A stretch of 64,000 nucleotides of DNA. Origin: an uncultured Candidatus Saccharibacteria bacterium. Lineage in GTDB: Bacteria; Patescibacteriota; Minisyncoccia; Phycocordibacterales; UBA9973. The stretch lies in assembly GCA_964623415.1 (NCBI GenBank), contig CAZUUH010000001.1, positions 1,305 through 65,304 on the forward strand, written 5' to 3'. Below, piece by piece: positions 53,616 through 54,416 of this stretch (within the stretch, counting starts at the first letter, position 1; the number at the start of each line of letters is the position of its first letter). Made by a program: the position numbers and the translations under genes. Below the pieces are notes generated by a model. That model saw only the letters and a list, made by a program, of their open reading frames with translations, made no database searches and was not told where the DNA came from.

Positions 53616-54416
53616 ATGGAACAAAAAACAACCACAAATATCATAGCAACTATAGGCCCATCTAGTTGCGATAAAGAAACTTTATCACAAATGATAGATC
53701 ACAATATGGATATGGCTCGTTTAAATTTTTCATGGGGTTCATATGAATGGTTCATAGATGTTATTGGTTTGATAAAAGAACTTAGCAAAGAAAAAAATAA
53801 ATATATACCTATAATACAGGATTTATCTGGACCAAGAATCCAAGATGAAAATGGACATTATTTTAATAATGAAAGTAAGGATAAAATAATTACAGAAAAG
53901 GATATAGCTGATTTAGAATTTGGAATAAAAAATAATGTTGATTATATTGCAATGTCTTTTGTAGGTTGTAAAGATGACATTGTAGAACTAAGAAATATTA
54001 TAAAAGAAAAAGGTGGTAAACAAAAAATTATTGCAAAAATAGAAAGGAAAATGGCTGTAGACAATCTATGTGAAATTATACAAGAAGCAGACGCTATAAT
54101 GGTTGCTCGTGGAGATCTTGGTAATGAATTTGCGTTAGAAGAAATACCTTTTATTCAACACAAAATAATACAGGCTTCAAACCTAGCCGATAAGATGGTC
54201 ATCGTAGCAACACAAATGTTGTTATCAATGGTTGAAAACGATAAACCTACAAGAGCTGAAGTTACAGACATTGCTTATGCCATATTAGACGGAGCAGATG
54301 GTATTATGCTATCAGAAGAATCTGCTAAAGGAAAACACCCAGTTCTTGCGATAAAAATAATGGAAAATATTGCAAGATTTGCTGAAAAACATCGCAATAT
54401 TATTAAAATAGATTAA
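53616..54416 (+). CDS. pyk: Minimal pyruvate kinase (A/TIM-barrel domain only; B lid and C-terminal allosteric domain absent)
   Basis: IIATIGPSS...[24 protein letters not shown] and [30 protein letters not shown] align to the PK A domain. The roughly 100-aa B-domain insert and the C domain have no counterpart. Confidence 0.65.
   Translation: [266 protein letters not shown]

What the first reader, a model, noticed from the sequence alone, without database searches (positions are those of the whole stretch)
53616..54416. Pyruvate kinase reduced to its TIM-barrel A domain
The 266-aa protein aligns with the PK A domain ([64 protein letters not shown]). It jumps from the LDTKGPEIR-equivalent straight back into the barrel, so the roughly 100-aa B/lid domain is missing. 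It ends before the roughly 120-aa C-terminal allosteric domain. The canonical NFSHG His is Trp. Either this is an extreme minimal PK, a decayed gene, or a re-purposed PEP-utilising barrel. It sits next to a 2-hydroxyacid dehydrogenase, which would make a two-step PEP-to-lactate fermentation module if it is active.
Basis: partly seen in the sequence, partly recalled or inferred. Interest (0 to 1): 0.5.

Follow-up and report, generated by a model that had tools for sequence, protein, structure and literature searches.

The report
Lidless single-domain pyruvate kinase family
This intact gene belongs to a widespread, strongly conserved family of ultra-small-bacteria (Paceibacterota) pyruvate kinases that keep only the catalytic barrel and have lost both the nucleotide-binding lid and the regulatory domain, an architecture I found in no paper or curated family model and that has not been tested biochemically.

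Summary
Window 53616-54416 (+) is an intact 266-aa ORF that matches only the pyruvate kinase (PK) barrel. A 16-residue linker replaces the ~95-aa B/lid domain, and no C domain follows. The next gene starts 7 nt after the stop, and no B/C remnants exist in the window.

It is not decay. The 120 closest homologs are all 262-269 aa, relatives occur in 376 species genomes (the best 80 all Patescibacteria), and dN/dS is <=0.16. Every barrel catalytic residue is invariant. The family derives from K+-independent PKs. Its own hallmarks are His77->Trp, loss of Arg119, and an invariant His in a short hairpin.

The gene is operonic with enolase, glycerate 2-kinase, phosphoglycerate mutase and a 2-hydroxyacid dehydrogenase. 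In other lineages it is fused to the first three of these.

Best reading (confidence ~0.6): a lidless, unregulated PK that converts PEP to pyruvate at the end of this module. Two caveats apply. All three lid residues that contact the nucleotide are gone, and a canonical PK lies next to the mini-PK in three genomes.

The neighbouring dehydrogenase resembles glyoxylate/hydroxypyruvate reductases more than D-LDH. The verdict is a new variant of a known kind, of moderate interest.

The parts
53616..54416 (+). mini-PK gene: 266-aa pyruvate kinase A (TIM-barrel) domain only
   Evidence: ORF; PF00224 255 bits; TIGR01064 314.5 bits against a cut-off of 306.4; AF2 model pLDDT 92.4, pTM 0.90; Foldseek versus PDB gives PK chains only, TMq 0.86-0.92, e.g. 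7r6y_D rmsd 1.4 A over 261 columns
53718..53735 (+). R35-L-N37-F-S39-W40 motif (rabbit PK R72, N74, S76, H77->W): PEP/gamma-phosphate Arg, cation-site ligands, adenine-pocket residue changed to Trp
   Evidence: Invariant in 120 family members. W at this position in 15/17 A-only clusters and 0/133 B-containing PKs. Coordinates. His77 bounds the adenine pocket (PMC8835810)
53820..53843 (+). D69-L-S-G-P-R74-I-Q76 (rabbit D112...E117->R, R119->Q): K+-independent signature, with the hinge Arg119 lost
   Evidence: R at position 117 in 17/17 A-only clusters. R119 is present in 133/133 B-containing PKs and absent in 17/17 A-only clusters. The L113/x114/K117 signature of K+-independent PKs is described in PMC8835810
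53835..53864 (+). beta-hairpin R74-F83 that replaces the ~95-aa B/lid domain; contains the invariant His81 (53856-53858)
   Evidence: AF2 DSSP strands 74-77 and 80-83, pLDDT 66-74. His81 is invariant in 120 members and present in all 16 other A-only clusters
54036..54047 (+). K141-I-E143-R144 (rabbit K269, E271, N272->R): catalytic Lys and Mg2+ ligand
   Evidence: Invariant. K/R at position 272 is shared with the nearest full-length K+-independent PKs
54114..54125 (+). D167-L-G-N170 (rabbit D295): second Mg2+ ligand; Asn170 is characteristic of this Paceibacterota family
   Evidence: Invariant in the 120-member family. [VI]ARGDLGNE was one of the two search patterns that recovered 376 genomes
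54210..54212 (+). T199 (rabbit T327), proton donor to enolpyruvate
   Evidence: Invariant
54312..54320 (+). S233-E-E235 (rabbit S361, E363)
   Evidence: Invariant
54423..55394 (+). co-transcribed D-2-hydroxyacid dehydrogenase (GyaR/GRHPR-like), the conserved partner of the mini-PK
   Evidence: 7-nt gap and no terminator between the genes. Pfam. Best PDB match is Pyrococcus glyoxylate reductase 2dbq at 251 bits, versus D-LDH 3kb6 at 149 bits. Immediately downstream of the mini-PK in 42/72 loci, and within 6.5 kb on the same strand in 48/56 loci. dN/dS <=0.14
52836..52856 (.). bidirectional intrinsic terminator that closes the upstream ATP synthase operon and sets the upstream boundary of the locus
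   Evidence: 7-bp all-GC stem followed by T runs on both strands

Best explanation
The gene encodes a functional, lidless and non-allosteric pyruvate kinase paralog ('mini-PK'). It descends from K+-independent bacterial PKs and is typical of Paceibacterota (Parcubacteria/OD1). Shown: it is an intact PK A-domain barrel with every PEP, Mg2+, cation-site and proton-relay residue conserved. It is under purifying selection. It is co-transcribed with, and in other lineages fused to, the enzymes that make PEP (enolase, fed by phosphoglycerate mutase or glycerate 2-kinase). Inferred: it binds PEP and Mg2+ as canonical PK does, with Arg74 supplying the charge that K+ supplies in K+-dependent enzymes. 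It transfers the phosphoryl group to a nucleoside diphosphate bound in an open, remodelled site, where Trp40 replaces His77 at the adenine pocket and the Gln76/His81 pair of a short hairpin replaces Arg119. Thr199 then protonates enolpyruvate to give pyruvate. Lacking the C domain, it would be constitutively active, with flux set by operon expression. Its product is probably handed to the adjacent 2-hydroxyacid dehydrogenase.
For: (1) Homology and fold: PF00224 255 bits; 45-53% identity to full-length PKs over the barrel; AF2 pLDDT 92.4 with rmsd 1.3-2.4 A to PK A domains. (2) Active site: R35, N37, S39, D69, K141, E143, D167, T199, S233 and E235 are invariant in 120 members and across 16 further A-only clusters. 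These include R72 and K269, which established PK enzymology ties to phosphoryl transfer. (3) Selection: 78% mean column identity; dN/dS <=0.16 with saturated dS; relatives in 376 species genomes. (4) Context: enolase immediately upstream in 41/70 loci; enolase, GK or PGM within 6.5 kb in 36/56 loci; only 2/56 loci have none of the four partners. (5) Fusions with clean ORFs: miniPK-enolase, PGM-miniPK, miniPK-PGM (two independent assemblies), GK-miniPK, GK-enolase-miniPK. (6) Energetic logic (inference): a GK-enolase-miniPK chain is ATP-neutral only if the last step regenerates ATP. (7) In the K+-independent M. tuberculosis PK, no B-domain movement is induced by substrates (PMC8835810), which makes the lid more dispensable in this lineage. 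The lid was lost a second time independently in an A+C family. (8) Kantor 2013 reconstructed a pathway to pyruvate for the complete RAAC4 OD1 genome, and the PK they place next to enolase there is this gene (L024).
Against: R119, K206 and D177 are the lid residues that contact the nucleotide's beta-phosphate, ribose and Mg-water in rabbit PK (PMC8835810). All three are absent, and R119 is never retained in A-only forms. An uncovered site might hydrolyse PEP or bind ADP poorly. In L051, L060 and L057 a B-containing PK lies within a few kb of the mini-PK. Canonical PKs are common in the phylum but sit in different genomic contexts. Both points suggest the two forms are not simply redundant. There are no biochemical data. 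The position of His81 relative to the active site is inferred from the hairpin register in a model region with pLDDT 66-74, and I had no coordinates. I could not check whole genomes for a second PK.
Confidence: 0.6

Rival explanations
1. Re-purposed PEP-utilising barrel. It still makes enolpyruvate/pyruvate from PEP, but the phosphoryl acceptor is not free ADP. It could be water (a PEP phosphatase), another metabolite, or a protein His. One version uses the invariant hairpin His81 as a relay, or primes the phospho-His of the neighbouring or fused dPGM-type mutase.
For: All three lid residues that contact the nucleotide are lost, and R119 is lost in 17/17 A-only clusters. The family-specific cluster W40/Q76/H81 is invariant or near-invariant, and His81 is universal. 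It coexists with a canonical PK in three genomes. It is fused to His_Phos_1 domains in both orders.
Against: PEP hydrolysis would waste one of the two ATP-yielding steps in organisms that live by fermentation, and would make the GK-enolase-miniPK fusion a net ATP sink (inference). The adenine-pocket elements T12/G14/P15 and N37-S39 are retained. Fusion with PGM is equally well explained by consecutive pathway steps.
Confidence: 0.2
2. An incomplete PK that needs a partner protein, such as the co-operonic dehydrogenase, enolase, GK or PGM, or its own oligomer partner, to cover the active site and supply the missing nucleotide contacts.
For: Very tight operon coupling (7-30 nt gaps) and repeated fusions to neighbours. 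The active site is open in the model.
Against: The partners differ between lineages (DH, enolase, GK or PGM, in different orders). The window gene has only the DH nearby. No separate B-domain ORF appears in any of the 80 loci; B-domain hits occur only inside full PK genes.
Confidence: 0.1
3. Different chemistry within the PEP/pyruvate-barrel superfamily, for example oxaloacetate decarboxylase (a known side activity of PK) or an aldolase/lyase.
For: A-domain-only barrels in this superfamily (HpcH/HpaI, PEP mutase/ICL) carry out enolate chemistry without a lid (established knowledge). There is a weak NCBIfam RipC C-C lyase hit at E=0.0023.
Against: Only PF00224 is hit in Pfam at E<=0.01. Identity to true PKs is 45-53%. 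The phosphoryl-transfer residues R72 and K269 are invariant. The gene sits directly after enolase, the enzyme that produces PEP.
Confidence: 0.05
4. A decayed gene, frameshift or assembly artefact.
For: None beyond the short length.
Against: It is a single clean ORF. The same 262-269-aa length is seen in the 120 closest homologs from many independent assemblies, on contigs up to 362 kb, and in near-genome-size contigs of 693-704 kb. dN/dS is <=0.16. There are no B/C remnants in the window.
Confidence: 0.01

Closest known systems
K+-independent bacterial pyruvate kinases (cluster II of Oria-Hernandez et al.; e.g. M. tuberculosis PykA 5WS9, P. aeruginosa PykA 6QXL)
   Same: Same barrel and the same catalytic residues. 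Same L113/x114/(K,R)117 signature and K/R at position 272. 45-53% identity over the A domain. Top Foldseek hits.
   Different: Those enzymes have a ~95-aa B lid carrying R119, K206 and D177, and a ~105-aa allosteric C domain. The mini-PK has neither, and it carries H77W, R119Q and a hairpin His.
Canonical Paceibacterota/Nomurabacteria PKs (467-475 aa; e.g. P0381, P0303, L051 4598-6001)
   Same: Same phylum. The hinge motif DLSGPKIR is nearly identical to the mini-PK's DLSGPRIQ. They coexist with the mini-PK in some genomes.
   Different: Three-domain architecture. Solitary or convergent genomic context rather than the enolase/GK/DH operon.
C-domain-less PKs (NCBIfam PRK06739, 352 aa; the ~326-355-aa A+B representatives)
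   Same: They lack the allosteric C domain and are presumably unregulated.
   Different: They keep the B lid and R119. The mini-PK scores only 212.9 bits against the PRK06739 cut-off of 564.
A+C lidless PKs of other Patescibacteria
   Same: The B domain is deleted and His77 is replaced by an aromatic residue (Tyr). They are from CPR bacteria.
   Different: They keep the C domain. The splice is even shorter, with no hairpin and no His. The loss was independent: they do not cluster with the A-only forms in the NJ tree.
Barrel-only members of the PEP/pyruvate superfamily (HpcH/HpaI aldolases PF03328, PEP mutase/isocitrate lyase)
   Same: A single TIM barrel that stabilises a pyruvate enolate on Mg2+ without a lid domain (established knowledge).
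   Different: There is no significant sequence match for the window protein. The chemistry is different. They lack the PK phosphoryl-transfer residues.

Membership tests
Pyruvate kinase homologous family (Pfam PF00224 barrel; TIGR01064) | Significant match to the PK barrel model above the curated cut-off | tested here: met
   PF00224 scores 255 bits against a cut-off of 30. TIGR01064 scores 314.5 against 306.4, so it passes only marginally.
Pyruvate kinase (EC 2.7.1.40) catalytic machinery | PEP/Mg2+/proton-relay residues R72, K269, E271, D295, T327, S361, E363 (rabbit numbering) | tested here: met
   R35, K141, E143, D167, T199, S233 and E235 are invariant in 120 members and in all A-only clusters.
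Pyruvate kinase, K+-independent branch | A basic residue at position 117 with L113, and retained cation-site ligands N74, S76 and D112 | tested here: met
   The motif is D69-L70-S71-G-P-R74. R at position 117 occurs in 17/17 A-only clusters. The signature is described in PMC8835810.
Canonical pyruvate kinase architecture | B (lid) domain inserted after barrel strand 3, carrying the nucleotide contacts R119, K206 and D177 | tested here: not met
   There are 16 residues where B-containing PKs have 82-111. R119 is replaced by Q, and K206 and D177 have no counterpart.
Canonical pyruvate kinase architecture | C-terminal alpha/beta allosteric domain (PF02887) | tested here: not met
   There is no PF02887 hit. 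The protein ends 6 residues after the last barrel helix. The next gene starts 7 nt downstream. This domain is not universal in the family, since A+B forms exist.
Pyruvate kinase (EC 2.7.1.40) activity | PEP + ADP -> pyruvate + ATP | not testable with these tools
   This needs an enzyme assay. The only support here is indirect, from operons and fusions with enolase, PGM and GK.
Pyruvate kinase pathway role | Genomic or functional linkage to the PEP-producing step (enolase) | tested here: met
   Enolase is immediately upstream in 41/70 related loci. Fusions to enolase exist. The window itself has no enolase within its 64 kb.
HpcH/HpaI aldolase / citrate lyase (PF03328) | Match to the family model | tested here: not met
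   The window protein has no hit at E<=0.01. Some relatives give only weak sub-threshold hits.
D-lactate dehydrogenase (for the neighbouring gene 54423-55394) | Closest similarity to characterised D-LDHs, or passing a D-LDH equivalog cut-off | tested here: not met
   Best NCBIfam hit is PRK13243 glyoxylate reductase at 303 bits (cut-off 455). The D-LDH models score 137-148 bits against cut-offs of 356-579. In PDB, GyaR 2dbq scores 251 bits against 149 for D-LDH 3kb6. Substrate preference is not testable here.

The most novel reading that the evidence does not exclude
The lidless barrel is not an ADP-dependent kinase. It is a PEP-driven phosphotransferase whose open active site and universally conserved hairpin His81 pass the phosphoryl group to a partner. 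One candidate is the catalytic His of the co-operonic or fused dPGM-type mutase. Another is direct transfer to nucleotide held by the fused glycerate kinase, which would be substrate channelling. In genomes that also keep a canonical PK, the two enzymes would then do different jobs.
Probability: 0.1. Interest if true: 0.85.

Novelty: new variant of a known kind. Interest (0 to 1): 0.55.

Why it matters
Textbook PK catalysis depends on the B-domain lid closing over the site and supplying three nucleotide contacts. A natural barrel-only PK family spanning hundreds of species would define the minimal catalytic unit of this central enzyme. It was hit by lid loss twice in CPR bacteria and is welded by operons and fusions to enolase, PGM and glycerate kinase. 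It would also show how nucleotide binding can be rebuilt with an aromatic swap at His77 and a short hairpin His. The finding matters for metabolic reconstructions of CPR bacteria too. PK is one of their few ATP-yielding steps and is scored there simply as present or absent, and its distribution is reported as patchy (Jaffe 2020; Nelson and Stegen 2015). Whether the mini-PK makes ATP changes the energy budget inferred for these organisms. The multi-enzyme fusions suggest a compact glycerate/3-PG-to-pyruvate module that could be useful in pathway engineering.

Tried and rejected
- **R74 and R144 as compensations for lid loss.** Rejected. The nearest full-length K+-independent PKs already carry K/R at both positions.
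- **Robust monophyly of the A-only forms.** The NJ tree recovers one clade, but bootstrap support is only 3/50. A single origin rests mainly on shared derived characters.
- **Fusions as stop-codon read-through or alternative-code artefacts.** Rejected. There are no internal stops and no in-frame TGA under code 11 in L006, L007, L008 and L009. The miniPK-PGM fusion was assembled in two independent samples.
- **A second PK, enolase or glycerate kinase in the window.** None found by tblastn.
- **Using contig length as a fingerprint for co-occurrence of canonical and mini PKs on the same long contigs.** No matches, but the sensitivity is low, so the result is inconclusive.
- **Canonical Paceibacterota PKs occupying the same operon slot as the mini-PK.** They do not.
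- **Literature searches for a described B-less or A-only PK.** Four full-text searches found nothing relevant. The 'truncated pyruvate kinase' hit is an engineered deletion in Thermoanaerobacterium.
- **Promoter scan.** Not above chance in this 30%-GC DNA: 27 sites found against 21.8 expected.
- **AFDB fold search.** The library was unavailable.
- **Geometry of His81 and Trp40 relative to the active site.** Model coordinates are not exposed, so this could not be measured.

Full report
**1. Observation**

Window 53616..54416 (+) is an uninterrupted 266-aa ORF. It matches the Pfam pyruvate kinase barrel PF00224 at E=1.3e-75 (255 bits) in two stretches. It just passes the NCBIfam pyruvate kinase equivalog TIGR01064, at 314.5 bits against a cut-off of 306.4.

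Against solved PKs, query residues 4-81 align to residues 2-79 of Geobacillus PK (2e28), and query residues 92-263 align to residues 171-346. The chain is 587 residues long. The B/lid domain (~80-170) and everything after the barrel therefore have no counterpart.

In a 151-sequence alignment the query has 16 residues where B-containing PKs have 82-111. It has 6 residues after the last barrel helix where most full-length PKs have ~100-125.

The gap is in frame. The next gene starts 7 nt after the stop. tblastn with B and C domains of three full-length PKs finds nothing in the 64-kb window, with a best E of 0.04. There is no PK paralog in the window, and its GC content is 29.8%.

**2. It is a conserved family, not a decayed gene**

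The 120 best homologs among 5.8 billion proteins are all 262-269 aa and 62-100% identical. Where named, they are called 'pyruvate kinase [Candidatus Paceibacterota]'. They lie on contigs of up to 362 kb.

A scan of species-representative genomes found relatives in 376 genomes. The best 80 are all Patescibacteria (Paceibacterota, Nomura-, Yanofsky-, Adler- and Moraniibacteria). They include the 693-kb RAAC4_OD1_1 contig and a 704-kb Nomurabacteria contig.

Mean column identity across the 120 sequences is 78%. Nei-Gojobori dN/dS between the window gene and three relatives is <=0.16 with saturated dS. The neighbouring dehydrogenase gives similar values.

An exhaustive search of 1.84 billion cluster representatives found about 16 further 50%-identity clusters with the same A-only core. 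Full-length PKs still share 45-53% identity over the barrel.

**3. Anatomy**

The AlphaFold2 model is confident (pLDDT 92.4, pTM 0.90). It shows a (beta/alpha)8 barrel in which a beta-hairpin, with strands 74-77 and 80-83 (pLDDT 66-74), stands where the B domain would emerge. Foldseek against the PDB returns only PK chains. TMq is 0.86-0.92, and rmsd is 1.3-2.4 A over 255-263 columns for the best-fitting chains.

All barrel catalytic positions are invariant. In rabbit-muscle numbering they are:
- R72 = R35, N74 = N37, S76 = S39, D112 = D69
- K269 = K141, E271 = E143, D295 = D167
- T327 = T199, S361 = S233, E363 = E235

The hinge motif D-L-S-G-P-R and the Arg at position 272 are not compensations. 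The nearest full-length PKs carry the K+-independent signature (L113, x114, K/R117, K/R272), so these features are inherited (signature described in PMC8835810).

Three features are specific to the A-only forms:
- His77->Trp, in 15/17 A-only clusters and 0/133 B-containing PKs.
- Loss of Arg119. It is present in 133/133 B-containing PKs and absent in 17/17 A-only clusters, where it is mostly Gln.
- A His in the hairpin (His81), present in every A-only cluster.

By the hairpin register in the model, Gln76 and His81 are cross-strand neighbours at the place where Arg119 projects in canonical PK. His77 is known to lie next to Arg119 and to bound the adenine pocket (PMC8835810). I therefore infer that Trp40, Gln76 and His81 form a co-adapted cluster that remodels the nucleotide site. 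This is inference. I had no access to model coordinates.

**4. Genomic context and fusions**

In the window the mini-PK is followed after 7 nt by a D-2-hydroxyacid dehydrogenase (DH), with no terminator between them. Upstream lie a divergent small zinc-ribbon ORF and the F1Fo ATP synthase operon, which is closed by a strong terminator.

Across the 80 related loci:
- Enolase is immediately upstream on the same strand in 41 of 70 evaluable loci.
- The DH is immediately downstream in 42 of 72.
- Among 56 loci with both flanks, the DH lies within 6.5 kb on the same strand in 48, enolase in 36, and MOFRL-type glycerate 2-kinase (GK) in 20.
- Only 2 of the 56 have none of the four partners.

The recurrent arrangements are eno->miniPK->DH, GK->eno->miniPK->DH, DH->GK->eno->miniPK, and DH->PGM->miniPK->eno.

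More distant A-only clusters occur as fusions:
- miniPK-enolase (P0123/L006, preceded by a PGM gene)
- PGM-miniPK (P0127)
- miniPK-PGM (P0129/P0271, assembled in two independent samples and followed 2 nt later by the orthologous DH)
- GK-miniPK (P0131)
- GK-enolase-miniPK (P0162/L007, preceded by an overlapping DH)

The four ORFs I could inspect have no internal stops and no in-frame TGA. This is strong guilt-by-association evidence that the barrel acts on PEP made by enolase. The window itself contains no enolase or GK.

**5. A complication**

The mini-PK is a paralog, not simply the remnant of the only PK. In L051 and L060 a 467-aa A+B+C PK is transcribed divergently from the DH-GK-eno-miniPK operon. 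In L057 the mini-PK is followed directly by a B-containing PK and then by enolase.

Canonical 467-475-aa PKs are common in Paceibacterota and Nomurabacteria. In three long contigs they are solitary or merely convergent with enolase, not in the mini-PK operon slot. I could not test whether most mini-PK genomes also carry a canonical PK.

**6. Mechanism**

In rabbit PK the lid residues R119, K206 and D177 move 7-10 A to contact the nucleotide. R119 contacts the beta-phosphate, K206 the ribose hydroxyls, and D177 a water on the Mg of Mg-ATP. His77 bounds the adenine pocket. In the K+-independent M. tuberculosis PK, no lid movement is induced by substrates, and the enzyme reaches its active conformation by a flip of the residue-117 lysine (PMC8835810).

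All three lid contacts are missing here. Even so, I judge a working lidless PK the most likely reading (~0.6), for these reasons:
- The phosphoryl-transfer residues R72 and K269 are invariant.
- The adenine-pocket elements of the barrel are retained.
- The family descends from a branch in which lid closure is not the activation step.
- A GK-enolase-miniPK chain makes energetic sense only if ATP is regenerated (inference).
- The lid was lost a second, independent time. An A+C family of 369-393 aa in other Patescibacteria again replaces His77 with an aromatic residue, Tyr.

Without the C domain the enzyme should be unregulated. A speculative rationale for coexistence with an allosteric PK is that substrates entering at 2-PG or 3-PG do not generate the upstream sugar-phosphate activators.

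The rival explanations are an altered phosphoryl acceptor or PEP phosphatase (0.2), a partner-supplied lid (0.1), other enolate chemistry (0.05), and decay (0.01).

**7. The neighbouring dehydrogenase**

Its best matches are archaeal glyoxylate/hydroxypyruvate reductases (2dbq 251 bits; NCBIfam PRK13243 303 bits, below the cut-off of 455). D-LDH 3kb6 scores only 149 bits.

Together with GK in the same operons, this suggests a route from hydroxypyruvate to D-glycerate, 2-PG, PEP and pyruvate. However, the DH is the invariant partner even where PGM replaces GK. That fits equally well with reduction of the PK product, pyruvate, to D-lactate, as Kantor et al. proposed. The substrate is unresolved.

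**8. Comparison with what is known, and novelty**

The protein is a member of the PK homologous family. Public records name it 'pyruvate kinase'. Kantor et al. 2013 noted the enolase-PK-2-hydroxyacid-dehydrogenase cluster in the complete RAAC4 OD1 genome (PMC3812714; this is locus L024).

It fails two architectural features of canonical PK, the B and C domains. C-less A+B PKs are known (PRK06739).

I found no description of an A-only or B-less PK in four full-text searches or in the CPR metabolism papers I read. No dedicated NCBIfam or Pfam model exists for it.

I classify it as a new variant of a known kind. The interest is moderate (0.55). It is surprising for PK enzymology and relevant to CPR energy budgets, but its function is still inferred.

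Noticed in passing
P0203, P0392-P0409 (no window coordinates): A second, independent lidless PK architecture exists in other Patescibacteria. It has A+C domains without B and is 369-393 aa long. The splice 'D-[VI]-R-G-[VI]' leads straight back into the barrel, and NFSHG becomes NFAYG. Its nearest full-length relatives are Doudna-/Moranbacteria PKs.
   Followed up: partly
L007 2279-5557; L006 4097-6136; L008/L009 2580-4088: Multi-enzyme fusions of lower-glycolysis steps occur in other lineages. 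There is a 1092-aa glycerate kinase + enolase + mini-PK protein, preceded by an overlapping 2-Hacid_dh. There is also a 679-aa mini-PK + enolase and a 502-aa mini-PK + dPGM-type mutase. All are clean ORFs under code 11.
   Followed up: partly
L051 4598-6001 (-); L060 ~4570-5940 (-); L057 ~11120-12112 (+): Canonical B-containing PK genes lie within a few kb of the mini-PK in three genomes, so the two forms coexist there.
   Followed up: partly
window 53379-53552 (-): A 57-aa C4 zinc-ribbon protein with acidic termini is transcribed divergently from the mini-PK. Copies 65-86% identical occur in 32 related loci, just upstream of the (enolase-)mini-PK genes. It is unusually well conserved for a tiny ORF. 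It could be a regulator or a partner.
   Followed up: partly
window 55424-56293 (+): A 289-aa protein with no Pfam hit has a hydrophobic N-terminus followed by a long charged, helical-looking region. It is conserved directly downstream of the dehydrogenase in 34 related loci.
   Followed up: partly
window 48574-52826 (+) and 52836-52856: The F1 part of an F-type ATP synthase operon (alpha, gamma, beta, epsilon) ends in a perfect 7-bp all-GC hairpin. The hairpin reads as an intrinsic terminator on both strands.
   Followed up: no
L003 2759-4265: In the closest long-contig relative, the ATP synthase alpha subunit is called as four short ORFs. This could reflect frameshifts, sequencing errors or decay.
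   Followed up: no
L004 12853-14251: bAvd and reverse-transcriptase (RVT_1) genes lie about 1 kb downstream of the dehydrogenase in GCA_035510575.1. This pairing is the signature of a diversity-generating retroelement.
   Followed up: no
L001 5732-7477; L003 7894-9579: A Pif1-family helicase sits upstream of the mini-PK in two relatives. In L003 it lies between the ATP synthase operon and the mini-PK. It is absent from the window.
   Followed up: no
window 46049-46121 (+) and 33383-33465 (-): The only RNA genes detected in the window are tRNA-Ile(GAT) and tRNA-Leu(TAA). No Rfam family other than tRNA reached its gathering score.
   Followed up: yes
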